A stretch of 64,000 bases of DNA from the NCBI GenBank assembly GCA_964625085.1, contig CAZVAJ010000001.1:37708-101707 (forward strand), in the 5' to 3' direction. Source of the stretch: Candidatus Micrarchaeota archaeon. Its GTDB lineage: Archaea; B1Sed10-29; JAJSAI01. The first letter of the stretch is position 1. Every line of letters begins with the position of its first letter. The notes under the pieces are model-generated. The model saw nothing but the letters and a program-made list of their open reading frames with translations. It was not told the origin of the DNA and searched no databases. Below are positions 2,972 through 54,932 of the stretch, one piece after another. Position numbers and translations under genes: made by a program.

Positions 2972-3766
2972 ATGCAAGAGCTTATGATCGTGAAATTAGG
3001 CGGGTCAGCAATAACCAGAAAAAGCTCTGAAAAGCCAGAAGTCAACCATGATACACTAAATCGCCTGGCGAAAGAAATGGGAAAGTGGTATTCCCCTGAA
3101 AAAAAGGTAATAATAATCCACGGTGCAGGAAGCTACGGGCACGTGATAGTAAAAAAAACAGGGATACACAAAGGCGTGGAGAACCCGGAGCAGAGAAAAG
3201 CGTTTGCGGAAACGCAGAGACTGCAGAACGAGCTTGACACAATAGTGTGCAAAGCTCTAATAAACGAAGGGGTGCCTGCCTTTCCACTGCAAGCAAGCTC
3301 AACAGCAGTTATGGAAAGAGGACGCTTAAAGAAAATGGACTGTGAAGTGATAAAAGGACTCGTGAATAATGGAATCGTGCCCGTGTTATACGGTGTGCCG
3401 GCATATGACACTGTCCAGGTGTGTTCTATTCTCTCAGGAGATGTTATTGCCCCATATCTTGCACTAGAACTAGGGGCAAAGATGGTGATCCACGGCACTA
3501 ATGTCAACGGGGTTTACACAGGAGACCCAAAAAAAGACCCGGATGCAAAACAGATACCTGAAATAAATCAAGAAAACTGGGGCCAGGTTAAAAACGCTCT
3601 CGGCCTTTCCGCAGACACCGACGTAACAGGAGGCATGAAAGGAAAAGTAGAAGAAGCGTATGAACTGGCTAGAAAAGGAGTAAAAAGCAGGATCATTGAT
3701 ATTACTACGCCTGATAACCTTTTCAGAGCACTTAACGGCGAAAGCATCGGCACTTTAATAAGGTGA
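2972..3766 (+). CDS. ipk: isopentenyl phosphate kinase
   Basis: Amino-acid-kinase fold signature KLGGSAIT...IIHGAGSYGH. Lies between mvk and fni as in the archaeal mevalonate pathway. Confidence 0.85.
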   Translation: MQELMIVKLGGSAITRKSSEKPEVNHDTLNRLAKEMGKWYSPEKKVIIIHGAGSYGHVIVKKTGIHKGVENPEQRKAFAETQRLQNELDTIVCKALINEGVPAFPLQASSTAVMERGRLKKMDCEVIKGLVNNGIVPVLYGVPAYDTVQVCSILSGDVIAPYLALELGAKMVIHGTNVNGVYTGDPKKDPDAKQIPEINQENWGQVKNALGLSADTDVTGGMKGKVEEAYELARKGVKSRIIDITTPDNLFRALNGESIGTLIR

Positions 3767-4791
3767 ACAAAATGACCCAAACAGAACAAAGAAAAAATGA
3801 TCATATCGTCATGTGCCTGTCTAAAAAAGTAGAATCAGGAAGCACTTGGCTAGAGCACGTGAAACTCGTGCACTACAGTCTGCCTGAAATAGACTTTAAC
3901 AAAGTGAATCCAGGCACAGAGTTCCTCGGTAAAAAGTTTAAAATGCCAGTCATGATAACTGCAATAACCGGAGGAACAAAGCGTGCGCAGGAGATTAACA
4001 GAAAAATCGCGCGCGTTGCGCAAGAAAAAGGAATCGGAATGGGGGTAGGAAGCCAACGGATTATGATAGAAAAACCTGAAACCAGCGAAACCTTCCAGGT
4101 CAGGGACATAGCCCCAGACGTATTCCTGGCAGGAAACATAGGCGCTTATCAAATAAAACAGTACTCGGCTGAGCAGGTGCTAGAAGCAGCTGACAGAATA
4201 GAAGCTGATGCTCTGTGCGTCCACCTGAACGCTGCCCAAGAAGTATTCCAGCCAGAAGGGGATACTGATTTCTCAGGATGCTTGAACGCATTATCTGACC
4301 TGTGCAAAGCTGCAAAAATCCCAATAATAGCAAAAGAAGTGGGGAATGGAATAAACAAACAGGTGGCAGAAGAGCTCAAACAGGCAGGGGTAAGCGCGAT
4401 AGACACAGAGGGAGTAGGCGGAACGAGCTGGATCCTTGTTGATTCTCTCAGGGGAGGACCTGACCCAACAGAGTTCCTAGACTGGGGACTTCCAACAGCC
4501 ACATCTGTTCTTGAATGCTCAAGAACAGGACTGCCTGTAATCGCTTCAGGAGGCATACGCTCCGGCTTAGACATCGCCAAAGCAATATCCCTTGGAGCAA
4601 GCTTGACTGGATTCGCACTGCCAGCGCTGAAAGCAACAGAAAAAAATGAACTGAACAAACTACTAGACAAAATAGAGTTTGAGCTTAAAACAACCATGTT
4701 CCTAACCCGGTCCAGCGATCTCGAAAGTCTCAAAAAAGCAGACAAGGTTATCTCAGGACCGCTTAAAGAGTGGATAACACAAAGAAAATAA
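3763..4791 (+). CDS. fni: isopentenyl-diphosphate delta-isomerase, type 2 (FMN-dependent)
   Basis: N-terminal RKNDHI signature and TIM-barrel glycine-rich motifs typical of IDI-2. Confidence 0.85.
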   Translation: MNKMTQTEQRKNDHIVMCLSKKVESGSTWLEHVKLVHYSLPEIDFNKVNPGTEFLGKKFKMPVMITAITGGTKRAQEINRKIARVAQEKGIGMGVGSQRIMIEKPETSETFQVRDIAPDVFLAGNIGAYQIKQYSAEQVLEAADRIEADALCVHLNAAQEVFQPEGDTDFSGCLNALSDLCKAAKIPIIAKEVGNGINKQVAEELKQAGVSAIDTEGVGGTSWILVDSLRGGPDPTEFLDWGLPTATSVLECSRTGLPVIASGGIRSGLDIAKAISLGASLTGFALPALKATEKNELNKLLDKIEFELKTTMFLTRSSDLESLKKADKVISGPLKEWITQRK

Positions 4792-4839: not shown

Positions 4840-6084
4840 GTGACAGACGAGAGAATAAACAGTATAGCAATCAAACATGCTCTCAAAAATGCTGTAGAAC
4901 ACGGTGGAAAAGCAGCAGCAGGGCCCGTAATAAACAAGGTTCTCGGAGACCTTCCTGAAGCAAGGTCTGACATGAAAACGCTGGGCAAGACAGTAACAAA
5001 AACAGTAGCTGAAGTTAATTCACTGAGCGTGGAAGAACAGAAAAAAAGGCTTCTTGAAATATGGCCAGATGCCCTTGAGAAAAAGCCTGAAAAACCCAAA
5101 GAGTTCCCTGAACTGCCGGGGAACACAAGCGGGGTGGTCCTACGGTTTGCCCCAAACCCTAACGGCCCGCCCACAATAGGATCTGCTAGGGGCGCATACG
5201 TCAACTGGTACTACGCAAGAAGGTACGGTGGGAAGTTTGTACTGCGTTTTGATGATACTGATCCAAAAACCAAGCCCCCTATGCCTGAAGCATATGACTG
5301 GTACCTTGAAGACTTCAGATGGTTGTTCGGAGAAGAGCCTGATGAAGTATACTACCTTTCTGACATGCTGCCAGAAGCATATGAGTACTGTGAAAAGCTC
5401 ATAAGAACAGGAAAGGCTTATTCCTGCAAGTGTTCCCAAGAAGAAGGCAGGAAGTACAGAACACAAGGAAAAGCATGCCCACACAGAAACCAGACCCCTG
5501 AAGAGAATATGAAAGAATGGAAGAGAATGCTTTCCGGAGAATACAAGGAAGGAGAGATCACCATCAGGATAAAAACAGACCTTAAAGCAAAGGATCCTGC
5601 GCACAGAGATTTTGTCGCCTTTAAGATAACCTACGCGCCCCACCCGCGCACAGGAACAAAGTATCATGTCTGGCCCGCGCTGGATTTCATAGGCGCAATA
5701 GCGGACAAAATAATAGGCGTAACACACATAATCCGCGGTAAGGACCTGCGTGATTCAACAACTCGGCAAGAGTATGTTTACAAGTATCTTGGGTGGAAAT
5801 ACCCGGTAACGCTTTACTGGGGCAGGCTAAAAGTCCATGGGTTCGGCAAGCTGAGCACAAGCCAGATACGCAAAGGCATAGAAGAGGGCAAGTACTCTGG
5901 ATGGGACGATCCAAAGCTCCCCACCCTCAAAGCACTTAAGAAAAGAGGAATCACGCCTGAAGCACTACGCGAATGGTTCAAGAGCATGGGTTTCACTGAA
6001 AGAGACGTGGCTGCAGACCTGCAGATACTGGAAGCGATAAACAGGAAGCAAAAACATTTAAAAACCCGGAAAGCAGAAGAGTAA
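4840..6084 (+). CDS. gltX: glutamyl-tRNA synthetase-like protein: catalytic core only, HIGH motif degenerate (TIGS), no anticodon-binding domain
   Basis: GTG start. The N-terminal archaeal GluRS-specific domain is followed by the class I core (VLRFAPNPNGPPTIGSARGAY, DDTDPKT, KLSTS). The ORF stops after the catalytic domain and the next gene follows 62 nt later. Confidence 0.7.
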   Translation: MTDERINSIAIKHALKNAVEHGGKAAAGPVINKVLGDLPEARSDMKTLGKTVTKTVAEVNSLSVEEQKKRLLEIWPDALEKKPEKPKEFPELPGNTSGVVLRFAPNPNGPPTIGSARGAYVNWYYARRYGGKFVLRFDDTDPKTKPPMPEAYDWYLEDFRWLFGEEPDEVYYLSDMLPEAYEYCEKLIRTGKAYSCKCSQEEGRKYRTQGKACPHRNQTPEENMKEWKRMLSGEYKEGEITIRIKTDLKAKDPAHRDFVAFKITYAPHPRTGTKYHVWPALDFIGAIADKIIGVTHIIRGKDLRDSTTRQEYVYKYLGWKYPVTLYWGRLKVHGFGKLSTSQIRKGIEEGKYSGWDDPKLPTLKALKKRGITPEALREWFKSMGFTERDVAADLQILEAINRKQKHLKTRKAEE

Positions 6085-6146
6085 CAGTACCAGTGAGAGT
6101 ACAAGGCTTTGTCAAAAAAGCCGATGAGTAAAGGAGGTAAATTATT

Positions 6147-6515
6147 ATGGCAGCACCACATGTCAAGTTTGAAACACCTAAAGAAGTTTCTGACCAAGCG
6201 TATAAGGCAGTACAGATGGCCAGGGACACTGGCAAACTAAGAAAAGGAGTGAACGAGACAACCAAAGCCCTGGAAAGAGGGCAGGCAAAACTGGTTGTCA
6301 TAGCAGAAGACATCACTCCTCCTGAAATAGCAGCCCATTTGCCCATACTGGCAGAAGAGAAGGGAGTGCCATACGTTTACGTTCCGACCAAAAAAGATCT
6401 TGGAACAGCAGCAGGGCTCCCTGTAGGATCAAGCAGCATAGCAATAACAGAAGAGGGAGACGCCAAATCAATAATAGAATCAATAGAAAAAACCGTGAAA
6501 GAACTAAAGAAGTGA
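6147..6515 (+). CDS. rpl7ae: 50S ribosomal protein L7Ae (kink-turn binding)
   Basis: 122 aa with the L7Ae/L30e fold signature ([17 protein letters not shown]). An AGGAGGT Shine-Dalgarno lies upstream. Confidence 0.9.
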
Positions 6516-6516
6516 T

Positions 6517-6726
6517 TTGATGGAAGAAGGATTCCCTGCACAAGTTGTAGAAATAGTAGGAAACACCGGAGTGTACGGTGAGATCACACAAGTAATGGTA
6601 AAAGTACTTGAAGGAAGAGATAAGGGAAGGATACTCAGAAGAAACGTCAAGGGCCCTGTAAAACAGGGAGACATTCTCATACTGCTTGACACAGAAACAG
6701 AAGCAAGAGAGATTAGAGTAAGGTGA
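6517..6726 (+). CDS. rps28e: 30S ribosomal protein S28e
   Basis: 69 aa; [19 protein letters not shown]... matches the S28e consensus. Confidence 0.9.
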
Positions 6727-6905
6727 GCCAAGTGAAATGTTCCTTCTGTAAGCAAACAATACCAAAAGGCAAGGGAAAGATGATCGTGGGAGCTAAAGGA
6801 GACGTCAAGTACTACTGTTCAAGCAAGTGCGAGAAAAACGCTCTGAAGCTCAAGCGCAGGCCGGAAAAAGTCAAGTGGGTTAAGAAAAAGAAAAAACAGG
6901 AATAA
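6723..6905 (+). CDS. rpl24e: 50S ribosomal protein L24e
   Basis: 60 aa with CxFC...C zinc-ribbon pattern. Completes the conserved L7Ae-S28e-L24e order. Confidence 0.85.
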
Positions 6906-7007: not shown

Positions 7008-8747
7008 ATGGCTCTAAGAAGCCCTATAATATCAGTACTAGGACACGTGGACCACGGCAAAACAACCATCCTAGACAAGATCAGGGGTAGTGGTATTGCC
7101 GCAAAAGAAGCAGGGCTTATCACCCAGCATGTTGGAGCAAGCTTTGTGCCGCTTGAAGCCATAAAAAGAACTTCCGGCCCCTTGCTGGAAAAGTATGGTT
7201 TCAATCTCACGATACCGGGACTATTGTTCGTAGACACCCCTGGACACGAAGCGTTCACAACACTCAGGCAAAGAGGAGGAAGCGCTTCAGACCTCGCAGT
7301 CCTAGTCATAGACATAATGCAGGGAGTACAACCGCAGACAAAAGAATCCATAGAAATACTAAAAGCAAACAAAGTGCCATTCATCGTGGCCGCTAACAAA
7401 ATAGACCTGCTTAACGGCTGGATCCCGCATCCTGGAAAACCATTCTTGGAAACGCTGAAAGAACAGCCTGAACGCACGGTCCAGGAACTTGACACAAAAC
7501 TGTACGAGATCGTGGGACAGCTCGGAGAACTTGGGTTTAACTCAGAAAGGTTTGACAGGGTAGAAGACCTTACCAAAAACGTGCTTATAATCCCGGTATC
7601 CGGAAAAACAGGAGAAGGATTTCCTGAACTCCTGCTCTTCTTAGCAGGCCTCAGCCAAAAGTACATGATGCAGAAACTGAACATAGACACAGAAAAACCA
7701 GGGGTTGGAAGTATTCTGGAAGTCAAAGAAGCGACAGGCCTCGGAATGACCATAGACGTAATACTCCTGGAAGGAAAAATAAAACAATCTGACATGATCG
7801 CAGTGGCAAGCAAAACCGGGCCGAAAATAGTGAAGATAAAGGCCCTTCTACAACCCGCGCCGTTAGAAGAAATAAGAGACGCTAAAAGAAAGTTCAAAAC
7901 AGTAAAAGAAGTTCACGCTGCAGCAGGAGTCAAAATAGCAGCCCCCGGACTGGAAGACGTTATCCCAGGGTCCCCCTTGTTCGTAGTAGAGCCAGGGAAA
8001 GACAAAGAAGCAATGGAAAAAGTGGAAAAAGAAATGTCAAACGTGAACATAAAAACAGAACCTCTCGGGATCATAGTAAAAGCAGACACGCTGGGCTCGC
8101 TTGAAGCAATATGCAAGCTCATAAGCAGGCATGGGATAAAGGTTAGAAAAGCAGAAGTAGGCCCTGTGAACAAAGTTGACCTAACAGAAGCAGACAGCAT
8201 GAGAGGAGAAGACTGGGAATACCGAGCCATATTCTCGTTCAACCAACCTGTACCCTCCGCCATAAAAGAAGAAGCAAAAACAAGAGGGATACAAATATTC
8301 GAATCAAACGTGATATACCGGCTTGAAGAAGAATACCTCGAATGGCACGAGAAAAAGAAGAAAGAAAGAGAACTTGAAAGGCTCAAAAAGTATGTTTACC
8401 CTGCTAAGCTGAAAATACTCGAGGGGTATGTTTTCAGGAAAAGCAAACCCGCGGTCGTCGGTGTGGAAGTGCTTGAAGGAATGCTCAAATCAGACGTGCC
8501 AGTGATGCGATCTGATGGAAAAACAGTGGGGAGAATAAAAGGAATACAAGAAGAAGGAAAATCCAAAGAATTTGCTTCAAAAGGAGAAAAAGTTGCGGTG
8601 TCAATAGAAGACTGCACAGTAGGCAGGCAGGTAAACGAAGGGGATATACTCTATACTGCGGTGCCAAGAGAACAAGCTTACGAAATGATTGACAAAGTGC
8701 CCGAGAAAGGGCTTCTTAAAGAAATAATGCGTATAAAGGGTGACTAA
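7008..8747 (+). CDS. infB: translation initiation factor aIF5B (IF-2 homolog)
   Basis: GTPase motifs GHVDHGKTT, DTPGH and NKID. Product is about 580 aa. The upstream ATG at 6969 is probably not the true start. Confidence 0.85.
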   Translation: MALRSPIISVLGHVDHGKTTILDKIRGSGIAAKEAGLITQHVGASFVPLEAIKRTSGPLLEKYGFNLTIPGLLFVDTPGHEAFTTLRQRGGSASDLAVLVIDIMQGVQPQTKESIEILKANKVPFIVAANKIDLLNGWIPHPGKPFLETLKEQPERTVQELDTKLYEIVGQLGELGFNSERFDRVEDLTKNVLIIPVSGKTGEGFPELLLFLAGLSQKYMMQKLNIDTEKPGVGSILEVKEATGLGMTIDVILLEGKIKQSDMIAVASKTGPKIVKIKALLQPAPLEEIRDAKRKFKTVKEVHAAAGVKIAAPGLEDVIPGSPLFVVEPGKDKEAMEKVEKEMSNVNIKTEPLGIIVKADTLGSLEAICKLISRHGIKVRKAEVGPVNKVDLTEADSMRGEDWEYRAIFSFNQPVPSAIKEEAKTRGIQIFESNVIYRLEEEYLEWHEKKKKERELERLKKYVYPAKLKILEGYVFRKSKPAVVGVEVLEGMLKSDVPVMRSDGKTVGRIKGIQEEGKSKEFASKGEKVAVSIEDCTVGRQVNEGDILYTAVPREQAYEMIDKVPEKGLLKEIMRIKGD

Positions 8748-12888: not shown

Positions 12889-13847
12889 TGATCTATCTTG
12901 GCATTGAGTCCACAGCACACACCTTCGGAATAGGGGTCGTGGACGGAGAAAGGATAATTGCCAACGAGAAGGACTCTTACAAACCAGAAAAGGGAGGAAT
13001 AGTCCCAGCAGAAGCGGCAGAGCACCACAGAAAGCATGCTCTGCCAATACTAGAGAGGGCCCTTGAAAAGGCAGGTATTACTGCTAGAGAAATCGATGTT
13101 GTAAGCTATGCTGCTGGACCAGGCCTTCCACCCTGTCTGATTGAAGGCAAAAAACTTGCAGAAAAAGTGGCGGAAAACAAGCCAGTGATAGGAGTAAACC
13201 ACTGCATTGCACACATAGAGATAGGGAAAAAAGACTCAGGATTCAAAGACCCCTTAACCTTGTACGTGTCCGGAGGAAACACTCAGGTCATAGCATTGAA
13301 TGAAGGAAGGTACAGGATATTCGGAGAAACACTGGACATAGGCATAGGCAACGCGTTGGACAAACTCGCTAGAGAGATGGGGCTCAAGATGCCGGGAGGC
13401 CCAAAGATTGAAAAACTGGCAGAAAAGAGCGAAAAGTATATACCCTTACCGTACACTGTCAAAGGAATGGACTTTGCTTTTTCAGGACTTCTCACCGCGG
13501 CCAAGAATAGCCTGAACAATTCCAGAAAGGAAGACATCGCCTTTTCTTTCCAGGAAACTGCTTTTGCAATGCTGGCTGAAGTCAGCGAACGCGCACTGGC
13601 CCATACTCAAAAAAAAGAGGTTATTCTAACAGGAGGAGTTGCGGCCAATAAAAGACTTGCTGAAATAATAAAAGGGATGGCAGAAGAGCATAACGCAGAA
13701 TTCACAGTACCCAGACAAGAATACTGCGGAGATAATGGGGCAATGATCGCATGGCTTGGCAAGATAGTGTATGAATCAAAAACAGAAGCAGCTACTGACG
13801 TAAAACCCAAGTGGAGAACAGACCAGGTTAAGGTTACTTGGGAATGA
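12885..13847 (+). CDS. kae1: tRNA N6-adenosine threonylcarbamoyltransferase Kae1 (stand-alone, not fused to Bud32)
   Basis: Kae1/TsaD signatures GIEsTAHTFGIGVV and HxxxH-type metal site. 320 aa. Confidence 0.85.
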   Translation: MMIYLGIESTAHTFGIGVVDGERIIANEKDSYKPEKGGIVPAEAAEHHRKHALPILERALEKAGITAREIDVVSYAAGPGLPPCLIEGKKLAEKVAENKPVIGVNHCIAHIEIGKKDSGFKDPLTLYVSGGNTQVIALNEGRYRIFGETLDIGIGNALDKLAREMGLKMPGGPKIEKLAEKSEKYIPLPYTVKGMDFAFSGLLTAAKNSLNNSRKEDIAFSFQETAFAMLAEVSERALAHTQKKEVILTGGVAANKRLAEIIKGMAEEHNAEFTVPRQEYCGDNGAMIAWLGKIVYESKTEAATDVKPKWRTDQVKVTWE

Positions 13848-14853
13848 TTTTTGTTGACTGTCCTCTAAATCCTTTGCCTGTTCGTTCTGTCTTGAGAAGG
13901 CCTTTTTCTTCAAGGGCTTTTATCTTCCGTTCAAAAGTCCTCTGACTTTTTTTGCCCCCTAAGGACAAGTACTTCTCGTAAACGCTTCCTGCAAGACCCC
14001 CTTCTTCTGGCACTGCTTTTAGTATGAGTTTCTCGTCCTCGTCCAATGCAGGCGTGCTCGGGCTCAGCAGTCTGGAAGCCGCGTTCTCAACATGCTTTTT
14101 CAGGACCTTAATACTAGCGTCTTTCTCTGCTTCAAGCCCTGCTTCCCTAAGCAGGATAATGCCTGTCCGGACATCCCTATCTTCATACGCTTTCTTGACC
14201 ACAAGCATGAAAGCATCTTCTGACCATGTGCCGTCATAGAACGCGTAGTCTCGTCTCAGTTTCAGAACATCCTGCATCTCCTCAAGAGAGTAAGGTTTAA
14301 ACAGTATTGTTTCGGGAATGATTCTTGACCTTATCCTCGGGTCTACCTGAACAAACCAATCAGGATCATTGGTTATCATCACAAGAACAAGGTTCTTTAC
14401 TTCCTCTGCAAGATAGTACAAGTAATCAGCATCCTGGGACTTGTCCACCTCATCAAGGGCAAGCACAAGGCCCCTGTCGCCAACAATCCTGGATATCTTG
14501 GAAAGCACCTCATCAGTGCCAAGATTGTGTGTGAACTGGTAGCCGAGCTGATGACAAGCTTCTGAAAGGATCTTAAAACTAGAGTTCTTCTTCCAACAGT
14601 TAACGAAAACAACCAGAACATCATGCTCTTCTTTAAGGTCAGCGAGCATTCTTTTCACTGTAGCAGTTTTTCCGATTCCTGCTTTTCCAGTAACAAGAGC
14701 ATGCCTCCCCCGGTAGCCTTCCAGCATTGGTTTTATGCAGGCTGCTATCGCCTCTTGCTGAGCTTCCCTGTGTGGAAGCATTTTGGGAACGAATTCAGGG
14801 TCAAGGGAGTCTATGAAAGAGAAGAGGGACTCCCCCTCCATCAGCAAACGCAT
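13834..14853 (-). CDS. orc1: Orc1/Cdc6 replication initiator, short 339-aa paralog
   Basis: AAA+ Walker A GKAGIGKT, Walker B LALDEVD and a C-terminal winged helix. 3' ends overlap kae1 by 14 nt in convergent orientation. Confidence 0.8.
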   Translation of the reverse strand: MRLLMEGESLFSFIDSLDPEFVPKMLPHREAQQEAIAACIKPMLEGYRGRHALVTGKAGIGKTATVKRMLADLKEEHDVLVVFVNCWKKNSSFKILSEACHQLGYQFTHNLGTDEVLSKISRIVGDRGLVLALDEVDKSQDADYLYYLAEEVKNLVLVMITNDPDWFVQVDPRIRSRIIPETILFKPYSLEEMQDVLKLRRDYAFYDGTWSEDAFMLVVKKAYEDRDVRTGIILLREAGLEAEKDASIKVLKKHVENAASRLLSPSTPALDEDEKLILKAVPEEGGLAGSVYEKYLSLGGKKSQRTFERKIKALEEKGLLKTERTGKGFRGQSTKIIPK

Positions 14854-27540: not shown

Positions 27541-28683
27541 GTGATGAAGATGGACACTGAACATAAAATTGAACTGATAACAAGGAACACTGAAGAAGTG
27601 CTCACTGAAAATGACCTGCAATCCTTGATAGAAACTGGAACGCCTCTAAAGCACTACATTGGGTTTGAGATCTCTGGAATGATCCATCTCGGAACAGGGA
27701 TAATGAGCATGAACAAGGTAAGAGACTTTCAAGAAGCAGGGGTAGAATGTTCTGTGTTTCTTGCTGACTGGCATAGTTGGATCAACCATAAACTGGGGGG
27801 AGACCTTGAAGTCATACAAAAAGTTGCAGGAGGATACTTCAAAGAGGGCATGAAAGCATGCCTGAAAGCAGTAGGCGGAGACCCTGACAAGGTGAAATTC
27901 GTACTCGGAAGCGAATTATACCATAACAATGATGACTACTGGAAGACGGTCATAGACGTAAGCAAGAATACTACTCTTGGCAGAATGCAGAGAAGCATAA
28001 CAATCCTCGGAAGAAAAGAAGGAGAAGCCGTTGACTTTGCAAAATTAATCTACCCTGCAATGCAGGTCGCTGACATATTCATACAAGGAATAAACCTGGC
28101 GCATTCAGGGGCCGATCAGCGGAAAGCACACGTAGTAGCAAGAGAAGTTGGACTAAAACTGGAGTTCAACCCCTTGAAGAACGCGAAGGGCGAGAAAATA
28201 AAACCAGTAGCAGTACACCATCCGCTCATACTAGGGCTTGGGAAACCTCCAACATGGCCCGTTAACCCCGAAAACCTGAAAGAGGTATTATCAGCAATGA
28301 AAATGAGCAAAAGCAAGCCCGACACAGCAGTGTTCGTGCATGACACTCCTGAAGACATAAAAAGAAAGATCAACAAGGCGTTCTGTCTTGCAGGAGAGAC
28401 AACATTCAATCCTGTGTTGAACTGGACAGAAAAAATTCTGTTCCAGCAAGAAAACTTCACCCTGGAAGTAGAGCGGCCTGAAAAATTCGGGGGAAACATT
28501 TCATTCAGTTCTTTCCAAGAACTTGAAAACTCGTTTGCAAAGAAAGAACTTCACCCCATGGACCTGAAAAACGCGGTCGCAAGAGAAATAACAAAAATCT
28601 TAGAACCTGTTAGAGAACACTTCGAAAAGCCGGGGCCCAGAAGGATGCTGGAAGAACTTAGAGAAATCAAGACCACAAGATAG
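27541..28683 (+). CDS. tyrS: tyrosyl-tRNA synthetase (archaeal type; variant HIGH motif HLGT)
   Basis: Strong resemblance to Methanocaldococcus-type TyrRS (IGFEISGMIHLG, KMSKS, C-terminal RPEKFGG...ELHPMDLKNAVA). About 70 residues longer than the archaeal minimum. Confidence 0.85.
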   Translation: MMKMDTEHKIELITRNTEEVLTENDLQSLIETGTPLKHYIGFEISGMIHLGTGIMSMNKVRDFQEAGVECSVFLADWHSWINHKLGGDLEVIQKVAGGYFKEGMKACLKAVGGDPDKVKFVLGSELYHNNDDYWKTVIDVSKNTTLGRMQRSITILGRKEGEAVDFAKLIYPAMQVADIFIQGINLAHSGADQRKAHVVAREVGLKLEFNPLKNAKGEKIKPVAVHHPLILGLGKPPTWPVNPENLKEVLSAMKMSKSKPDTAVFVHDTPEDIKRKINKAFCLAGETTFNPVLNWTEKILFQQENFTLEVERPEKFGGNISFSSFQELENSFAKKELHPMDLKNAVAREITKILEPVREHFEKPGPRRMLEELREIKTTR

Positions 28684-28836: not shown

Positions 28837-30311
28837 TGAATGGAAGTGAGGCAGTAAACATCCTTCAGGAAAAAGGGTTTCTCCTCGCTCCAAAAACTAT
28901 CGAACTCGTTCTGTCAGCCGAGAACCCTGAAGAGATAGTAAACTTAGTTCTGGAAAAGTGTTCTGGAAAAACATTCATCCTTCCAGAAGACCTAGAAGAA
29001 AAAACAAAAACCAAGATCTCTCCTGAGAAAAAAGAGCAGCCAGTTATCGTAGAAAAAGCAAAAACATTCAAACCACTTGCAGAGGAGATAGAAGCAAGAG
29101 TAGAAAAAATGTGTGACTCCGAAATCCTAAGCAGGGGCAATGTCAAAGAATTCGTGGAATACTTCCAAGACCGTTACAATAAACTTGTCTCAGTCCTCAG
29201 GAGAAGAGGCAGCATAACAAAAGTCAAGGACATCCGGAAAAAAACCGAAAGAGAACTTAGAATTGCAGGTCTGGTCTACGAAAAGCGAAGAACAAAAAAC
29301 GGGCATCTGATGATCACAATAGAGGATGACACAGGCATGATAAACCTGCTGGTCCCGAAAAGCGATGCACAACTCATGGCCACCGCAGAAAACACTCTGC
29401 TCGACAGCGTGATTGCAGTGGACATAAGAAAAACGAACGGAAGCCTGCTAATCGCTAAAAAGATAATAGAGCCGGGAGTTATGAGGCAAGACACACCCTC
29501 TGCAGGAGAAGAAGTCATGGCGGCGGTGCTTTCTGACCCTCACGTAGGAAGCAAGCTGTTCATGAAAGAAAACTTTGAGAAGATGATCGCCTGGCTTCAA
29601 GGAAAAACAAGTCACGAGAAATATCTGAGGATAGCTGAAAAAGTAAAGTACATTGTTGTAACAGGAGACCTGGTTGACGGTATTGGAGTTTACCCAGGGC
29701 AAGAAAACGAACTGGAGTACACAGACATTTTTGAACAGTATCAAAAATTCTCAGAATACCTGCTCGAGATACCTGAATACATCCACATCGTGATAATCCC
29801 AGGCAACCACGATGCTGTACGAACCGCTGACCCGCAGCCAGCAATACCCTTAGAACTATTACCTGAACTAAAGAATACCGGCAACATCCATCTTGGAACA
29901 AGCCCCAGCACATGGAACATTCACGGTATAAAAACACTCGTGTACCATGGGACAAGCTTTGATGACATTGTTGCCAACATAAACAGTGCAACATACAATG
30001 AGCCTGAAACCATACTAGAAAAAGTGCTCATGACAAGACACCTACATCCATACTACGGCGGAAAACCAATAATCCCAACAGAACACGATTCGCTTGCAAT
30101 AAACGAACTTCCAAACCTCATGTTAACAGGACACATTCACAAGAATGCGTATCTGCAGAAAAACGGGTTGCTGGCAGTAAACGGAGGGACATGGCAACAG
30201 ATAACACCATATCAACAAAAGCAGGGGCACAAACCAACACCCTGCCAACTGCCCGTTATAGACCTTAACAGGATGAACATAAAAGTAGTTCACTTTGACA
30301 GGGGAGCATGA
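28837..30311 (+). CDS. polB: DNA polymerase D small subunit DP1 (Mre11-like 3'-5' exonuclease)
   Basis: Calcineurin-like phosphoesterase motifs GDLVDGIG and GNHD with a DP1-type N-terminal domain. The TTG at 28782 inside the hairpin is unlikely to be the start. Confidence 0.8.
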
Positions 30312-33300
30312 TGAACACATTGCTTGAAAGAACAGAGTGGTACTGGCAACACATGCAAGATAAAACAGAAGAAGCCTACAAGATAGCGGGAGCAGCAAGA
30401 GCAACTGGAAAAGACGTATCAACCAAAGTAGAGATCCCTCCTGCAGCAGATCTTGCAGCAAGAGTAGAAGGACTAGTCGGACCCAAAGGAGTAGCAGAAA
30501 AGATCAGAGAACTGCTGAAAGAAAACGATAGAGACACAATGACCCTAAGGATCATAGACCTGATAGTAAAAGGGACATTTGGGAAGTATGAAACAGAGGA
30601 GCAACTGGCAGAACAGTGCATTCGAACAGGGCTCGCAATAATAACAGAAGCAGTACCTGCCGCAGCCACAGAAGGAATCTCCCACACCAAAATCCTAGAC
30701 AACCCTGACGGCACAAGATGCCTTTCCGTGTACTACGCCGGACCAATAAGGTCAGCAGGAGGAACTGCTGCCGCTCTTTCAGTGGCTCTCGCAGACTACA
30801 CCAGAAGAAAAATGGGCCTGCAGGAATACAGACCCTCAAAAGAGGAAGTTGAAAGGTATGTTGAAGAAATAGGATTATACCATAACCTTGTTTCTAGGCT
30901 CCAGTACAATCCCCCTGAAGATGACATCAGACACATTGTCTCAAACTGCCCTGTTTGTGTAAGTGGAACACCCACCTCCGAACTTGAAGTAAGCGTTTAC
31001 AAGAACCTTCAGAGAATGGAAACAAACAGAATAAGGGGGGGAATGGCCTTAGTAATAGCAGAAGGAATAGCCCAAAAAGCAGCTAAGCTGCTGAAGTACT
31101 CCAAAAAATTTGAGCTCGGGTGGGACTGGATAGAAGCGATAGTCAAGGTAACAAAAAAAACAGGGGAAAAGAGAGAGATAAAACCAGTAACAAAATATCT
31201 CTCAGACATTGTGGGAGGCAGGCCCATATTCGCGTACCCCAGTCAAACAGGAGGACTCAGAATAAGGTACGGGAGAAGCAGGAACACAGGCCTTAACGCA
31301 AAAGGAGTGAACCCTGCCACGATGTACCTGACGAACGAGTTCATGGCCATAGGAACCCAACTGAAGCTCGAGCGGCCGGGCAAAGGGTGTGTCACGGTCC
31401 CTGTGAGTACTGTAGAAGGGCCCACGATCCTTCTCGACAATGGAGATGTAGTAAAAGTAAACACAGCCTCTAAAGCAATGGAAGTAAAAGACCGCGTTGC
31501 AGAGATTCTCTTCCTAGGAGACATCCTAATAAGCCACGGAGACTTTCTCAAATCCAACCACCCTCTTGTAAAACCAGGCATATGCGAAGAATGGTGGCAG
31601 CAGATATGTAAAGAGAGGGGTATAGGCGTTAATGACGCGTGGAACGTCAGTTCTGAAAAAGCAGTGGAACTGGCAAGGCAAGGTGCCCCAATGCACCCGA
31701 AGTACACATATTTTTACAATGCAGTGTCTTCAGACGATTTGCTTGAAATGGCAAGATGGCTCTCGAATGGCAGGATAACAAAAATGCACGGGATTGCAGG
31801 AGAACAAAGCAGGGTACTGGAAGTAGAAGTGTCAGAAGAAAAAAGGACTCTTGAAAGAATAGGTGTACCCCACAAGCTCAGAGGAGGAAAAGTGATAATA
31901 GAAGAAGCAGGCCCTCTGATAGAAACACTCTGCCTCACGCACATCAATGATCTATCTCTTCAAGAAGAAAACGTCCTTGAGTCTTTATCAAAAGCGAGCG
32001 GCATGGAGATAATGGAAAAAGAAGGCACATTCATCGGAGCCAGGATGGGCAGGCCTGAAAAAGCAAAACCAAGAAAAATGAACCCGCCCCCGAACCTGCT
32101 ATTCCCAATAGGAAAAAACGGTGGGAAGACAAGAACACTGCTAAAAGCAGCTGAGAAAGGAGTGATCTCAGTAGAAGCGGTCAGGTTGAAATGCCCTAAG
32201 TGCGGCAGGGAAACCATGAGCTATTACTGTCATGATTGCGGAGTGAGGACCGAAAGAGTATTCACCTGCACAAAGTGCGGCAAAAAAGGAAAATCAGAAA
32301 AATGCCCTTACTGCGGAGAACACGCAATACCCTACGCCTTCTTGCCATATGACCTGAAAAAAGCTGTGAAAGACGCTGAAAACAGGTTAGGAGAAAGGAC
32401 TCCTGAAAAAACAAAAGCAGTAGAAGGCTTGATAAACGGAGAAAAGATATTCGAGCCCATAGAAAAGGGAATACTGCGCGCAAAACACAATGTAGTAGTA
32501 TTCAGGGATGGAACAATAAGATTTGACGCAACAAACCTTCCCCTCACGCACTTCAAACCAAGGGAGATAGGAATAAGCGTAGAAAAGGCCAGAGAAATTG
32601 GGTACACGCATGACAAAGACGGTAAGCCCCTTGAAGACCCTGACCAAGTATGCGAGATGTTCGTGCAGGACATGATAATACCTGCAGAATCTGCTGAATA
32701 CATCCTCTCAGCAGCACAGTTCGTTGACGACCTGCTTGAAAAGTTCTATGGACTCCCAAGATACTATAACGCAGAGAAACCCTCTGACTTGGTAGGCCAT
32801 CTTGTGATAGCTCTAGCGCCCCACATCTCGGTCGGCGTTCTTGGAAGAATAATCGGGTTCAGCAGGGCCAGAGGAACCTACGCTCATCCGTACATGCACG
32901 CCGCATGCAGAAGAGACTGCTTTTCTCCGGAGGAAACCCTCCCGGTCTACGACGGGAAAGAGTGGAAAATAGTACAGATAGGCCCGTTCGTCGAGTCCCT
33001 GCTCTGCAGAAGAGAACCTAGAAAGACAGAGTTCGGAGACTGGGTGCTCCCGGTCGAAGGATACTATACTCTCGCCCTGAACCCCAAAACAAGAGAGTAC
33101 GAGCTCAAAAGGATCACTGCTTTCTCGAAACACGTTCCCCAGGACCACATGGTGGAAATAGTCCTCTCTGACAACAGGAAAATAAGGACCACAGGAACCC
33201 ACAAGTTCCCTGACCCTTCCTTTGGCAGGGTAAGAGCGCACGAGCTCGAGGAAGCATTGGTTCCGATGAAATTCAACATTCCTGAAAAAGATCCTGAAAG

Positions 33301-35107
33301 CATAGACTTGATGAACGCAAGAATAGAAGGGCTCATGGTCAGAGGAGCTGCGGGAATCCTTAGAAAATGGGTTCAGGAAAACGGAGGGTTCACCAAAGCC
33401 TCTGAAAAAATAGGCATCCCAAGATCCACTCTCTCAGATTACTGTTACAGGGACTCAGTCCCAGCAGAACTTCTGAAAACGCTTGGCTTGAAGGCGCCTG
33501 AAAACACAAGGGTTGGAGTGAAAAAAGATCATGTCACGCTTCCCAGGATCATCAGAGTAGACGAGCACTTGGCCAGGCTTCTCGGCTTCTACGCTGCAGA
33601 GGGCTACGCGCGGCACAGGGACAGAGAATACCAGACCGTCTTCTGCAACAAGAAACTAAAAGAAGGGGTCAAAAAAGAGCTGGAAAAGGCGCTTGGGATC
33701 CAGAAAACGTGGGAGAACGAATACGAGCTCGTGGTATCAAGCAGGATAATGTACGAGCTGTTCACGCGGGTCCTGGGCGCTGGAAAAAACGCCTACGAGA
33801 AGAGGGTTCCAAGCGTGCTTCTTGGGGCTAGAAAAGAGCTTGTCAAAGAGTTCCTCAGGGCCTACTTTGCTGGAGACGGGTGCATCTCCCGCGCAGGCAA
33901 CAGATCGCCTGAAGTATCCTGCACCAGCGTCTCCAAGATGTTGCTGAGGGATATCGAATTTCTACTAGCGCGCTTCAGCATAGCCACAAGCTGGTACGGG
34001 GCAGAACGGACTTCAAAAGGAAACGGGGTTGTGGCGTCCTGGTACTCAGAAAGGGGAAGGATCCTAACGACAAAAGAGTACAAGCTGAGGATGTACTCTG
34101 AAAACGCCAAGAAGTTCGTGGAAGAAGTAGGATTCTGGGATCCTGACAAGAACGCTAAAGCGAGAAAAATCCTGAGCGAGGCCAGGATCAAGGGCTCGAA
34201 AGCGAGGGTGGTGGGAGAGTCTAAAATCGTGCGGGCGAAGGAGATTAGAATAACCGAGAACAAAGAACTTGCACCCTCGTACAACCTTACTGTTGAAGAC
34301 CATCATAATGTAATAACTTCAGGAATCACAACCTTCCAATGTGACGGTGACGAAGACGCGTTCATGCTGTTACTTGACGCTCTCCTGAACTTCAGCAGAA
34401 GATACCTGCCAAGCTCAAGAGGCGGCACGATGGACGCGGCCATCGTGCTGACAACAAAAATAGACCCTGGAGAGGTGGACGATCAGGTTCACGAAATGGA
34501 CATAGTTTCAGAGTATCCTCTTGACTACTACCAAGCAGCGTGCAACAACCTAAACCCTTCTGACGTGAACGTGGAGCTAGTCAAAGACAGGCTGGGAACA
34601 AAAGAACAGTACTATGGAATGAAGTACACCCATGATACTGATAGGGTTGATGAGGGTCCTGTAGAATCAGCGTACACGACCCTAAAAACAATGGCTGAAA
34701 AAGTTGAGAAGCAGCTTGAGCTAGGGGAAAAGATCTTGGCAGTTGATGAAAGGGACCTTGCCAGCAGGGTGATTAACTTTCACTTCATGCGTGACATGAT
34801 GGGAAACCTAAGAGCATTTGGCCAGCAGGCCGTTAGGTGTGTTGATTGTAACAAAGTGTACAGGAGAACACCTCTTGCAGGAAAGTGCGTAAAATGCGGA
34901 GGGAGACTGGTACTGACAGTGAGCAAGGGAGGCATAGTAAAGTATCTTGAAGTCTCCAAAAACATTGCCAAAAAATACCACCTGTCCGACTACCTGAAAC
35001 AAAGGCTCATACTAATAGAAAATGATGTGAAAAGTTTCTTCGAGCTTGAAGAAATGGAAAAACGCGCAGAAGCAAAGAAACAGAAAAGCCTGGCTGAATT
35101 CGTGTAA
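30308..35107 (+). CDS. polC: DNA polymerase D large subunit DP2, interrupted in-frame by an intein
   Basis: 1599 aa. DP2 conserved blocks including HPYMHAA-RRD | CDGDEDAFMLLLDALLNFSRRYL and C-terminal zinc fingers CVDCNKVYRR...CVKCGG. A 474-aa insertion sits at the RRN/CDGDEDA site. Confidence 0.85.
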   Translation: MMNTLLERTEWYWQHMQDKTEEAYKIAGAARATGKDVSTKVEIPPAADLAARVEGLVGPKGVAEKIRELLKENDRDTMTLRIIDLIVKGTFGKYETEEQLAEQCIRTGLAIITEAVPAAATEGISHTKILDNPDGTRCLSVYYAGPIRSAGGTAAALSVALADYTRRKMGLQEYRPSKEEVERYVEEIGLYHNLVSRLQYNPPEDDIRHIVSNCPVCVSGTPTSELEVSVYKNLQRMETNRIRGGMALVIAEGIAQKAAKLLKYSKKFELGWDWIEAIVKVTKKTGEKREIKPVTKYLSDIVGGRPIFAYPSQTGGLRIRYGRSRNTGLNAKGVNPATMYLTNEFMAIGTQLKLERPGKGCVTVPVSTVEGPTILLDNGDVVKVNTASKAMEVKDRVAEILFLGDILISHGDFLKSNHPLVKPGICEEWWQQICKERGIGVNDAWNVSSEKAVELARQGAPMHPKYTYFYNAVSSDDLLEMARWLSNGRITKMHGIAGEQSRVLEVEVSEEKRTLERIGVPHKLRGGKVIIEEAGPLIETLCLTHINDLSLQEENVLESLSKASGMEIMEKEGTFIGARMGRPEKAKPRKMNPPPNLLFPIGKNGGKTRTLLKAAEKGVISVEAVRLKCPKCGRETMSYYCHDCGVRTERVFTCTKCGKKGKSEKCPYCGEHAIPYAFLPYDLKKAVKDAENRLGERTPEKTKAVEGLINGEKIFEPIEKGILRAKHNVVVFRDGTIRFDATNLPLTHFKPREIGISVEKAREIGYTHDKDGKPLEDPDQVCEMFVQDMIIPAESAEYILSAAQFVDDLLEKFYGLPRYYNAEKPSDLVGHLVIALAPHISVGVLGRIIGFSRARGTYAHPYMHAACRRDCFSPEETLPVYDGKEWKIVQIGPFVESLLCRREPRKTEFGDWVLPVEGYYTLALNPKTREYELKRITAFSKHVPQDHMVEIVLSDNRKIRTTGTHKFPDPSFGRVRAHELEEALVPMKFNIPEKDPESIDLMNARIEGLMVRGAAGILRKWVQENGGFTKASEKIGIPRSTLSDYCYRDSVPAELLKTLGLKAPENTRVGVKKDHVTLPRIIRVDEHLARLLGFYAAEGYARHRDREYQTVFCNKKLKEGVKKELEKALGIQKTWENEYELVVSSRIMYELFTRVLGAGKNAYEKRVPSVLLGARKELVKEFLRAYFAGDGCISRAGNRSPEVSCTSVSKMLLRDIEFLLARFSIATSWYGAERTSKGNGVVASWYSERGRILTTKEYKLRMYSENAKKFVEEVGFWDPDKNAKARKILSEARIKGSKARVVGESKIVRAKEIRITENKELAPSYNLTVEDHHNVITSGITTFQCDGDEDAFMLLLDALLNFSRRYLPSSRGGTMDAAIVLTTKIDPGEVDDQVHEMDIVSEYPLDYYQAACNNLNPSDVNVELVKDRLGTKEQYYGMKYTHDTDRVDEGPVESAYTTLKTMAEKVEKQLELGEKILAVDERDLASRVINFHFMRDMMGNLRAFGQQAVRCVDCNKVYRRTPLAGKCVKCGGRLVLTVSKGGIVKYLEVSKNIAKKYHLSDYLKQRLILIENDVKSFFELEEMEKRAEAKKQKSLAEFV
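32918..34339 (+). mobile_element. intein in DP2 with LAGLIDADG homing endonuclease; Cys1, TxxH block B, C-terminal ...TTFQ (Gln, no penultimate His), +1 Cys
   Basis: Begins CFSPEE directly after extein RRD. Block B is TGTHKF. The two LAGLIDADG motifs are LLGFYAAEGYA and FLRAYFAGDGCIS. Block G is YNLTVEDHHNVITSGITTFQ, followed by extein CDGDEDA. Confidence 0.75.
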
Positions 35108-54713: not shown

Positions 54714-54932
54714 TCAAGACACCTGATCCTGCTGTTGCTGATCATGTCTATCACAAGATAAAACTTCACTAACAAGCCCCCACGGAATTGTGTCTCTCAC
54801 CTTCATCTTAAGTTCTTTTATGCTCTTGCACGTGATTTCTTTCCTGTTTAACGTGATCCTGTACTCCCCGCTGGCGTTCTCGTGCTCTATTATCAGCCGG
54901 CAGTCTCCTTGGAATATTATTAAGGTATTCAT
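54714..54932 (-). CDS. hypothetical small protein (72 aa) between the large surface protein and the pilin
   Basis: ATGA-coupled to the upstream 819-aa ORF. No recognisable motif. Confidence 0.3.
   Translation of the reverse strand: MNTLIIFQGDCRLIIEHENASGEYRITLNRKEITCKSIKELKMKVRDTIPWGLVSEVLSCDRHDQQQQDQVS

What the first reader, a model, noticed from the sequence alone, without database searches (positions are those of the whole stretch)
4840..6084. GluRS-like gene with degenerate HIGH motif (TIGS) and no anticodon-binding domain
The ORF has the archaeal GluRS N-terminal domain and a class I catalytic core. The canonical P-x-H-I-G-H-A-R sequence instead reads PPTIGSARG, so both His residues of HIGH are replaced.

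The protein stops right after the catalytic domain. Canonical archaeal GluRS runs about 550 aa, whereas this is 414 aa. rpl7ae begins 62 nt downstream, so there is no room for the roughly 150-aa anticodon-binding domain.

This could be a minimalised GluRS, a catalytically altered paralog (compare bacterial Glu-Q-RS/YadB, which also lacks the anticodon-binding domain), or a split gene with the anticodon-binding domain encoded elsewhere.
Basis: partly seen in the sequence, partly recalled or inferred. Interest (0 to 1): 0.6.

Follow-up and report, generated by a model that had tools for sequence, protein, structure and literature searches.

The report
Archaeal GluRS lacking its anticodon-binding domain
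This gene is a real, conserved glutamyl-tRNA synthetase of a tiny DPANN (Micrarchaeota-type) archaeon that has naturally lost the whole domain that normally reads the tRNA anticodon, whereas its "degenerate" HIGH motif (TIGS) is the ordinary form in this enzyme subfamily.

Summary
The ORF at 4840-6084 (+), 414 aa, exists as described. It is an archaeal-type GluRS and scores above NCBI's equivalog cut-off even though it covers only profile positions 3-405 of 567. [quoted passage not shown]

The TIGS motif is not a defect. About 105 of the closest full-length archaeal GluRSs, including those of cultured Archaeoglobus and Ferroglobus, carry T[LIM]G[SN] at that position.

The truncation is not an assembly error:
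- A clan of 11 clusters, plus GTDB and metagenome loci, ends at the same point.
- An 84-85 % identical ortholog shows pN 0.10 against pS 0.76.
- The gene sits in the slot fni-gltX-rpl7ae-rps28e-rpl24e-aIF5B, where Iainarchaeum (annotated Diapherotrites) relatives carry the full-length gltX.

At least two further groups are truncated at the same boundary. One has about 24 clusters, and its Micrarchaeota sisters are full-length or about 525 aa with a partly deleted ABD.

A sensitive ABD profile found no separate ABD gene in the window or within 10 kb of eight other truncated loci. Whole genomes could not be searched, so a trans-encoded ABD or a second gltX is not excluded.

Best reading: a housekeeping GluRS that has lost anticodon recognition through reductive evolution. 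This is a new variant of a known kind.

The parts
4840..6084 (+). gltX: archaeal-type glutamyl-tRNA synthetase, 414 aa, naturally lacking the C-terminal beta-barrel anticodon-binding domains
   Evidence: ORF. PF00749 only. NCBIfam PRK04156 scores 560 bits against a cut-off of 516, covering profile positions 3-405 of 567. 3aii E 1.5e-101. AF2 pLDDT 92.6 and Foldseek best hit 3aii, rmsd 1.7 A over 315 columns.
4840..5094 (+). N-terminal helical YqeY-like domain (aa 1 to about 85), followed by a linker to aa 98
   Evidence: Aligns to residues 6-85 of 3aii, which PMC2978374 calls the N-terminal YQEY domain. The model has four helices between residues 3 and 74, pLDDT about 90. In this truncated clan it is 51 % identical, against 35 % in full-length pairs of equal core divergence.
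5173..5184 (+). TIGS, at the position of the class I HIGH signature (T112-S115)
   Evidence: Read from the sequence. Aligned with HIGH of 3aii. T[LIM]G[SN] is present in about 105 of the closest full-length archaeal GluRSs.
5425..5484 (+). Cys-x-Cys...Cys-x-His cluster (C196, C198, C213, H215) in the connective-polypeptide insertion; probable zinc site
   Evidence: C196, C198 and C213 are invariant in alignments A1 and A2. The M. thermautotrophicus GluRS structure binds one zinc ion (PMC2978374). Assigning these residues as the ligands is my inference.
5848..5862 (+). KLSTS, the KMSKS-equivalent loop (K337-S341)
   Evidence: Read from the sequence. K337 and S339 are invariant. Aligned with ALSTS of 3aii.
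5875..6045 (+). Stem-contact fold (aa 346-402), the last domain retained
   Evidence: Aligns to 3aii up to residue 394. Domain limits of 354-399 come from PMC2978374.
6046..6084 (+). Short variable basic tail (RKQKHLKTRKAEE) and TAA stop, at the point where full-length enzymes continue with ...NRYFFV... of the proximal beta-barrel
   Evidence: Alignment A1. The 84-85 % identical ortholog L006 ends 7 residues earlier.
6085..6146 (.). 62-nt spacer between gltX and rpl7ae; no room for another domain
6147..6905 (+). rpl7ae-rps28e-rpl24e, the conserved downstream neighbours of gltX
   Evidence: Pfam PF01248, PF01200 and PF01246. rpl7ae and rps28e follow both truncated gltX (L001, L002, L022, L024) and full-length gltX (L003); rpl24e follows in L001, L002, L003 and L025.
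2972..4791 (+). Isopentenyl-phosphate kinase and type-2 IPP isomerase (fni), the conserved upstream neighbours of gltX
   Evidence: Pfam PF00696 and PF01070. An FMN_dh gene sits directly upstream of gltX in L002, L003 and L005, and one gene further upstream in L004.

Best explanation
The ORF is the organism's housekeeping archaeal-type glutamyl-tRNA synthetase, presumably non-discriminating as in other archaea. It is the positional ortholog of canonical gltX.

It belongs to a lineage of DPANN (Micrarchaeota-labelled) archaea in which both C-terminal beta-barrel anticodon-binding domains have been deleted by reductive evolution. It keeps the N-terminal YqeY-like helical domain, the Rossmann fold, the Zn-containing CP insertion, the KMSKS-type loop and the stem-contact fold.

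TIGS is the normal HIGH-position signature of this GluRS subfamily, so ATP binding and glutamate activation should proceed as usual.

Inferred, not shown: tRNA(Glu) and tRNA(Gln) are selected without reading the anticodon. Selection would use acceptor-stem and D-arm contacts of the catalytic, CP and stem-contact domains. The YqeY-like domain may help, and for tRNA(Gln) so may the GatDE amidotransferase.
For: Identity:
- PRK04156 scores 560 bits (cut-off 516) and TIGR00463 scores 478 bits (cut-off 402).
- 3aii gives E 1.5e-101 over residues 6-394.
- The AF2 model has pLDDT 92.6 and superposes on 3aii at 1.7 A.

Catalytic residues: the Glu-binding Arg (R102), KLSTS and the Cys cluster are invariant.

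TIGS is normal: about 105 of the closest full-length homologs carry T[LIM]G[SN], including complete genomes of Ferroglobus and Archaeoglobus.

The truncation is real:
- Eleven 90 %-identity clusters of 398-414 aa end at the same column and form one clan.
- GTDB MAGs L006 (84-85 % identical), L007, L008 and L009, and metagenome locus L028, are also truncated.
- Window against L006 gives pN 0.10 and pS 0.76.

Positional orthology: enolase-S2-Memo-(mevalonate genes)-gltX-L7Ae-S28e-L24e-aIF5B is shared by L001 and L002. The Iainarchaeum locus L003 has a full-length gltX flanked by fni and L7Ae-S28e-L24e-aIF5B.

Loss rather than split:
- An HMM built from 106 ABDs detects Nanoarchaeia ABDs at E 1e-13 to 1e-28.
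- The same HMM finds nothing in the 64 kb window or within 10 kb of eight other truncated loci.
- A second truncated clade (P0307 group, about 24 clusters) has Micrarchaeota sisters that are full-length or about 525 aa with an internally deleted ABD. This is a degeneration series.

Precedent: an engineered C-truncated E. coli GluRS remains tRNA(Glu)-specific. This rests on the title of Dubois et al. 2009, cited in PMC3927822.

In the window's clan the N-terminal domain is unusually conserved: 51 % against 35 % at equal core divergence.
Against: - Only 64 kb of this genome, and at most 21 kb around each other locus, could be searched. A free-standing ABD or a second full-length gltX elsewhere in the genome is not excluded.
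- No tRNA genes lie in the window, so a shift of identity elements could not be examined.
- The extra conservation of the N-terminal domain is not reproduced in the second truncated clade compared with its full-length sisters. The compensation idea therefore rests on one clade.
- No activity data exist.
- In archaeal ND-GluRS the beta-barrels contact the first two anticodon bases (PMC2978374), so their loss should cost affinity or specificity.
Confidence: 0.65

Rival explanations
1. Split gene. The anticodon-binding beta-barrels are encoded by a separate gene elsewhere in the genome and associate with the 414-aa core in trans, as in the split genes of Nanoarchaeum equitans.
For: - Split informational genes, including tRNA synthetases, are reported for Nanoarchaeota and Micrarchaeota (PMC6349945).
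- The cut is exactly at a domain boundary.
- A free distal domain stimulates a C-truncated E. coli GluRS. This rests on the title of Dubois et al. 2009.
- Free-standing SepRS anticodon-domain homologs exist in some Micrarchaeota (PMC8762117).
Against: - A sensitive ABD profile found no ABD in the window or in the flanks of eight other truncated loci, about 200 kb in all.
- The ABD profile search of 5.8 billion proteins listed 120 short proteins, none labelled Micrarchaeota.
- The four short proteins checked on contigs of 5.6-860 kb all lie next to their catalytic part. Three are demonstrably broken genes: an in-frame stop, a frameshift, and a fragmented long-read contig.
- The related Micrarchaeota clade shows partly deleted ABDs still fused to the core, which is the pattern of decay rather than fission.
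Confidence: 0.17
2. Paralog with a new function. The truncated protein is not the translational GluRS but a Glu-Q-RS-like tRNA-modifying or other glutamyl-transfer enzyme, and a canonical full-length gltX lies elsewhere.
For: - Bacterial Glu-Q-RS (YadB) is a GluRS core without an ABD.
- Full-length GluRSs labelled Micrarchaeota exist in the database.
Against: - The gene occupies the canonical gltX slot among ribosomal-protein and initiation-factor genes, where relatives carry the full-length enzyme.
- It passes the archaeal gltX equivalog cut-offs and fails all Glu-Q-RS models, at 87 bits or less against cut-offs of at least 250.
- Its closest homologs are archaeal GluRSs, not the bacterial type, and it keeps the N-terminal YqeY-like domain.
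- The full-length Micrarchaeota proteins form separate sister clades rather than co-occurring pairs in the loci seen.
Confidence: 0.12
3. Artefact or pseudogene. A frameshift, premature stop or misassembly near 6080 removed the C-terminal domain.
For: Broken gltX genes of this kind do occur in public assemblies (L019, L020, L021, L026).
Against: - No ABD-coding sequence follows in any frame. rpl7ae starts 62 nt downstream.
- More than 35 independent 90 %-identity clusters from many assemblies end at the same boundary.
- Purifying selection is strong: pN 0.10, pS 0.76.
Confidence: 0.02

Closest known systems
Archaeal non-discriminating GluRS (M. thermautotrophicus, PDB 3aii; NCBIfam PRK04156 / TIGR00463)
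   Same: Same N-terminal YqeY-like domain, Rossmann fold, CP insertion with Cys cluster, KMSKS-type loop and stem-contact fold. Foldseek reports 45 % identity and rmsd 1.7 A over 315 aligned columns, and the sequence alignment spans about 390 residues. The genomic position matches that of full-length gltX in related archaea.
   Different: Both beta-barrel anticodon-binding domains are absent (residues 400-552 of 3aii). The signature is TIGS rather than HIGH, a variant shared with most euryarchaeal GluRSs.
Glu-Q-RS / YadB (bacterial tRNA glutamyl-Q34 synthetase)
   Same: A GluRS catalytic core that lacks an anticodon-binding domain.
   Different: YadB is a bacterial-type paralog that coexists with a canonical GluRS and glutamylates queuosine of tRNA(Asp). 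The window protein is archaeal-type, scores far below all Glu-Q-RS cut-offs, keeps an N-terminal YqeY-like domain and sits in the gltX locus.
Engineered C-truncated E. coli GluRS (Dubois et al. 2009, Biochemistry 48:6012; cited in PMC3927822)
   Same: A GluRS without its distal anticodon-binding part that, according to the paper's title, remains specific for tRNA(Glu).
   Different: It is a laboratory construct of the bacterial enzyme with an alpha-helical ABD. Here the deletion is natural, conserved and recurrent, and removes a beta-barrel ABD.
Split aminoacyl-tRNA synthetase genes of Nanoarchaeum equitans (e.g. split AlaRS)
   Same: A DPANN archaeon with an aaRS gene ending at a domain boundary.
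   Different: In N. equitans the complementary half is encoded elsewhere. No complementary half was found here.
DeltaN PylRS (PylRS lacking the N-terminal tRNA-binding domain; PMC9499178)
   Same: Natural, lineage-specific loss of a tRNA-binding domain from an archaeal aaRS, with no separate gene for the lost part.
   Different: It is a class II enzyme, a different domain is lost, and PylRS does not read the anticodon anyway.

Membership tests
Archaeal/eukaryotic-type GluRS (EC 6.1.1.17; PRK04156, TIGR00463) | Class I catalytic domain of the Glu/Gln type (PF00749) | tested here: met
   PF00749 E 1.3e-71, residues 99-403.
Archaeal/eukaryotic-type GluRS (EC 6.1.1.17; PRK04156, TIGR00463) | Score above the curated equivalog cut-off | tested here: met
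   PRK04156 scores 560.4 bits against 516. TIGR00463 scores 478.1 bits against 401.75. Both pass despite covering only about 70 % of the profile.
Archaeal/eukaryotic-type GluRS (EC 6.1.1.17; PRK04156, TIGR00463) | HIGH-position signature motif | tested here: met
   The literal HIGH is absent (TIGS). However, T[LIM]G[SN] is the form found in about 105 of the closest full-length archaeal GluRSs, including cultured Archaeoglobales. It is the subfamily's normal signature.
Archaeal/eukaryotic-type GluRS (EC 6.1.1.17; PRK04156, TIGR00463) | KMSKS-type loop and glutamate-binding arginine | tested here: met
   KLSTS (337-341) and R102 are invariant in alignments A1 and A2. R102 aligns with Arg100 of 3aii.
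Archaeal/eukaryotic-type GluRS (EC 6.1.1.17; PRK04156, TIGR00463) | C-terminal beta-barrel anticodon-binding domains (PF03950, PF20974) | tested here: not met
   There is no Pfam hit and the protein ends at the equivalent of 3aii residue 394. The ABD HMM finds nothing in six frames of the window.
Archaeal/eukaryotic-type GluRS (EC 6.1.1.17; PRK04156, TIGR00463) | Glutamylation of tRNA(Glu) and tRNA(Gln) | not testable with these tools
   Needs an enzyme assay.
Glu-Q-RS (YadB; TIGR03838, PRK05710) | Score above the family cut-off; bacterial-type core | tested here: not met
   TIGR03838 scores 87 bits against 276.7. The PRK05710 models score 50-88 bits against cut-offs of 250-453.
Glu-Q-RS (YadB; TIGR03838, PRK05710) | Coexists with a canonical full-length GluRS in the same genome | not testable with these tools
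   Only 64 kb of the genome is available, and no second PF00749 gene lies in it. The gene occupies the canonical gltX locus.
Split aaRS gene (Nanoarchaeum type) | The complementary half is encoded as a separate gene | tested here: inconclusive
   It was not found in the window or within 10 kb of eight other truncated loci. It was also not found among the listed ABD-only database proteins. Whole genomes were not searchable.

The most novel reading that the evidence does not exclude
In several DPANN (Micrarchaeota-labelled) lineages the only GluRS has lost anticodon recognition altogether, independently at least two or three times. tRNA(Glu) and tRNA(Gln) identity would then rest on the acceptor stem and D-arm, read by the core plus the YqeY-like domain. 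This would be a natural minimal class I synthetase serving translation.
Probability: 0.5. Interest if true: 0.7.

Novelty: new variant of a known kind. Interest (0 to 1): 0.55.

Why it matters
GluRS and GlnRS are textbook cases of anticodon-dependent tRNA recognition. The only natural GluRS-type core without an anticodon-binding domain listed in the aaRS review I consulted (PMC9437257) is bacterial YadB, which is not a translational synthetase.

A conserved ABD-less enzyme that arose more than once and sits in the housekeeping gltX locus would show three things:
- Anticodon reading by GluRS is dispensable in some cells.
- There is a natural system for asking how tRNA(Glu) and tRNA(Gln) identity is kept without it.
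- There is a compact scaffold of about 400 aa for synthetase engineering.

It also warns annotators on two points. These proteins are labelled plain 'glutamate--tRNA ligase'. And a missing HIGH histidine pair is normal in a large part of archaeal GluRS.

Tried and rejected
1. tblastn of 106 ABDs against the window gave only chance-level hits. The recurring weak ones fall in the enolase, CarS and NAC genes.
2. The ABD HMM on six-frame translations of the window and of all fetched loci found no separate ABD near any truncated gene.
3. The ABD profile search of the 5.8-billion-protein set returned many ABD-only proteins. The four checked on contigs of 5.6-860 kb all lie next to their catalytic part:
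   - L019: an in-frame stop replacing a conserved Glu codon.
   - L020: a frameshift.
   - L021: an error-rich long-read contig.
   - L026: adjacent ORFs at a contig end (junction not examined).
   All four were rejected as evidence for a trans ABD.
4. I asked whether the N-terminal domain compensates for the lost ABD. It is hyper-conserved in the window's clan but not in the second truncated clade, so this stays a hypothesis.
5. I looked for a free SepRS-type anticodon domain or another tRNA-binding protein. Pfam scans of 55 window ORFs found none.
6. Literature searches found no description of an ABD-less archaeal GluRS. Baker et al. 2010, the cited source for split genes in Micrarchaeota, is not held.
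7. The exact-sequence contig look-up for the window protein found nothing on record.
8. ARAGORN found no tRNA genes in the window.

Full report
**Observation**

The ORF at 4840-6084 (+) starts with GTG and encodes 414 aa. Pfam finds only the class I Glu/Gln catalytic domain PF00749, at residues 99-403.

NCBIfam places the protein in the archaeal gltX equivalogs:
- PRK04156 scores 560 bits against a cut-off of 516.
- TIGR00463 scores 478 bits against a cut-off of 402.
- The match covers only profile positions 3-405 of 567.

The best solved relative is the M. thermautotrophicus non-discriminating GluRS, 3aii (E 1.5e-101). It aligns over its residues 6-394 of 553.

The motif at the HIGH position reads T112-I113-G114-S115 (nt 5173-5184). 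The KMSKS-equivalent loop reads KLSTS (nt 5848-5862). The stop codon lies at 6082-6084, and rpl7ae (PF01248) starts at 6147, 62 nt downstream.

**Where the protein ends**

The 3aii paper (PMC2978374) defines these domains:
[quoted passage not shown] - Proximal and distal beta-barrels, residues 400-552, which form the anticodon-binding module.

The window protein keeps everything up to the stem-contact fold and stops where the barrels would begin. An AlphaFold2 model is confident (mean pLDDT 92.6, N-terminal helical domain about 90). Its best PDB match is 3aii, at rmsd 1.7 A over 315 columns.

**TIGS is not a degenerate motif**

Almost all full-length proteins among the 120 best homologs carry TLGS (88), TIGS (9), TMGS (3) or close variants. 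These include proteins from complete genomes of Ferroglobus placidus and Archaeoglobus species. HIGH occurs in this set only in a subgroup of the truncated proteins.

The premise that P-x-HIGHAR is canonical for archaeal GluRS holds for Methanothermobacter and Thermococcales-type enzymes, not for this subfamily. From my own knowledge, TrpRS also uses TIGN at this position, so Thr in place of the first His is compatible with class I catalysis.

The Glu-binding Arg (R102), K337 and S339 of KLSTS, and the Cys196/198/213 cluster are invariant.

**The truncation is real, conserved and selected**

- Eleven 90 %-identity clusters of 398-414 aa (P0001-8, P0010, P0011, P0014) end at the same alignment column, with short variable tails.
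- They form one clan in a neighbour-joining tree.
- A scan of GTDB genomes found truncated genes in MAGs labelled Micrarchaeota or unclassified DPANN. One of them, L006, is 84-85 % identical and ends 7 residues earlier.
- A metagenome scan added another truncated locus on a 568-kb contig.
- Between the window gene and L006, pN is 0.10 while pS is 0.76 and saturated, which indicates strong purifying selection.

A frameshift or assembly error is therefore excluded.

**Positional orthology**

The window order is enolase, rpS2, Memo, mevalonate-type kinase, isopentenyl-phosphate kinase, fni, gltX, rpL7Ae, rpS28e, rpL24e, aIF5B, rpS6e, aIF2-gamma.

The same neighbourhood surrounds the truncated gene in L001 and L002. 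In a Candidatus Iainarchaeum MAG (locus L003/L018, protein annotated Diapherotrites) the full-length gltX lies between fni and rpL7Ae-rpS28e-rpL24e. In L004 and L005 a full-length gltX also follows the isopentenyl-phosphate kinase and fni genes. The truncated gene therefore sits where the canonical housekeeping gltX sits.

**Lost or split?**

I built an HMM from the C-terminal domains of 106 full-length homologs. It detects even the divergent Nanoarchaeia domains, whose catalytic cores are 36-39 % identical to the window protein, at E 1e-13 to 1e-28.

The HMM finds nothing significant in six frames of:
- the 64 kb window;
- up to 10 kb on each side of eight other truncated loci: L001, L002, L006, L008, L009, L022, L024 and L028.

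A profile search for the domain in the 5.8-billion-protein set listed 120 short proteins, and none is labelled Micrarchaeota. The four that I checked on contigs of 5.6-860 kb all lie next to their catalytic part, and three are demonstrably broken genes: an in-frame stop, a frameshift and a fragmented long-read contig.

**More truncated groups, and intermediates**

A profile search of 1.84 billion cluster representatives, followed by a search seeded with P0307, revealed further truncated groups.
- The P0307 group has about 24 clusters of 396-413 aa, labelled Micrarchaeota, Micrarchaeaceae or Marsarchaeota. Their motifs are HIGH, HMGH or TIGH.
- P0313, P0364 and P0324 are also truncated.
- Both groups whose context I could inspect sit directly upstream of rpl7ae.

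In a neighbour-joining tree these groups are separated from the window's clan by full-length sequences. This suggests at least two or three independent truncations at the same boundary.

The sisters of the P0307 group are Micrarchaeota proteins in two states. Some have an intact anticodon-binding domain (535-561 aa). Others are about 525 aa, with a domain that has an internal deletion and scores only E 1e-15 to 1e-20. That series (intact, eroded, absent) is what reductive loss predicts, and is not what gene fission predicts.

**How it probably works**

Shown: an intact, selected GluRS core with all catalytic signatures, located in the housekeeping locus.

[quoted passage not shown] It would rely on the acceptor-stem and D-arm contacts of the core and stem-contact fold.

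Two helpers are plausible.
- The first is the N-terminal YqeY-like domain. By its abstract, the paper on D. radiodurans GlnRS describes a YqeY paralog appended to that enzyme and related to the GatB tail (PMC1865053). That this module binds tRNA is my recollection.
- In the window's clan this domain plus its linker is 51 % identical, against 35 % (sd 4-6 %) in full-length pairs of equal core divergence.
- This excess is not seen in the second truncated clade, so I rate the idea as tentative.
- The second helper is GatDE, which recognises the D-loop and A1-U72 of tRNA(Gln) and complexes with ND-GluRS (PMC9499178).

A precedent exists for the bacterial enzyme. By its title, a C-truncated E. coli GluRS stays specific for tRNA(Glu) (Dubois et al. 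2009, cited in PMC3927822).

**Comparison with known systems**

The protein is a member of archaeal GluRS by every sequence criterion except the anticodon-binding domain.

It is not a Glu-Q-RS. Those models score 50-88 bits against cut-offs of at least 250. It also carries the archaeal N-terminal domain and occupies the gltX locus.

An aaRS review lists YadB as the only GluRS-derived core of this kind (PMC9437257). My literature searches found no description of an ABD-less archaeal GluRS. A DPANN review mentions split tRNA synthetase genes in Micrarchaeota, citing Baker et al. 2010, which I could not read. Public annotation calls these proteins simply 'glutamate--tRNA ligase'.

**Limits**

- Whole genomes could not be searched, so a distant free-standing domain or a second gltX remains possible.
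- My trees are distance-based.
- No tRNA genes are in the window.
- Function is inferred from sequence only.

**Verdict**

The 'degenerate HIGH' interpretation is wrong. The 'minimalised GluRS' interpretation is the best supported (confidence about 0.65). The alternatives are a split gene (about 0.17), a neofunctionalised paralog (about 0.12) and an artefact (about 0.02).

It is a new variant of a known kind. It is of moderate to good interest for the synthetase and DPANN fields because the domain loss is conserved, has arisen more than once and sits in the housekeeping locus.

Noticed in passing
Homologs P0021, P0044, P0076 and about 100 others: Most euryarchaeal-type full-length GluRSs (Archaeoglobales, Methanosarcinales, Methanocellales, Iainarchaeum/Diapherotrites) carry T[LIM]G[SN] instead of HIGH. 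Both histidines of the class I signature are therefore dispensable in a large natural GluRS subfamily.
   Followed up: partly
P0307 group, P0313, P0364, P0324; loci L022, L024, L025: At least two further groups of GluRS are truncated at the same domain boundary, and both whose context was inspected lie upstream of rpl7ae. In a neighbour-joining tree full-length sequences separate them from the window's clan, which suggests recurrent loss.
   Followed up: partly
P0411, P0415, P0416, P0417, P0427 (about 525 aa, labelled Micrarchaeota): These are 'intermediate' GluRSs. Their C-terminal domain has an internal deletion (HMM positions about 36-60 are missing) and altered motifs (FEKIGFA in place of QFERFGF). 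Pfam no longer recognises the domain.
   Followed up: partly
L019 7037-7111; L020 about 7900-8052; L021; L026: Other lineages hold gltX genes broken into core and ABD ORFs. L019 has an in-frame stop replacing the conserved Glu of RGIxPEA. L020 has a frameshift. L021 is a long-read contig with many fragmented genes. L026 has adjacent core and ABD ORFs at a contig end (junction not examined). These look like errors or pseudogenes, not true splits.
   Followed up: yes
window 30308-35107 (+): The DNA polymerase D large subunit (DP2), 1599 aa, is interrupted by an intein with a LAGLIDADG homing-endonuclease domain.
   Followed up: no
window 61298-62653 (-): A 451-aa ThyX with two Thy1 stretches, about twice the usual length. 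It looks like a tandem-fused flavin-dependent thymidylate synthase.
   Followed up: no
window 54929-57388 (-) and 41943-43043 (-): Large ORFs of 819 aa and 366 aa have no Pfam match at E <= 1e-5.
   Followed up: no
window 1-64000: ARAGORN finds no tRNA gene in 64 kb. The window does encode two other synthetases with normal architecture: a class II Asp/Asn-type enzyme with an OB anticodon domain at 46489-47775, and a Trp/Tyr-type enzyme at 27541-28683.
   Followed up: no
window 13834-14853 (-) and 36358-37569 (+): Two Orc1/Cdc6 paralogs lie in the window. The second lies about 1.2 kb downstream of the PolD genes, with a 252-aa minus-strand ORF between them, and may mark a replication origin region.
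   Followed up: no
PMC8762117: Mukai and colleagues report free-standing homologs of the SepRS anticodon-binding domain in Micrarchaeota (pISA35 group). They suggest these support other aminoacylation systems. A link to the ABD-less GluRS is conceivable but untested, and no such ORF was seen in this window.
   Followed up: partly
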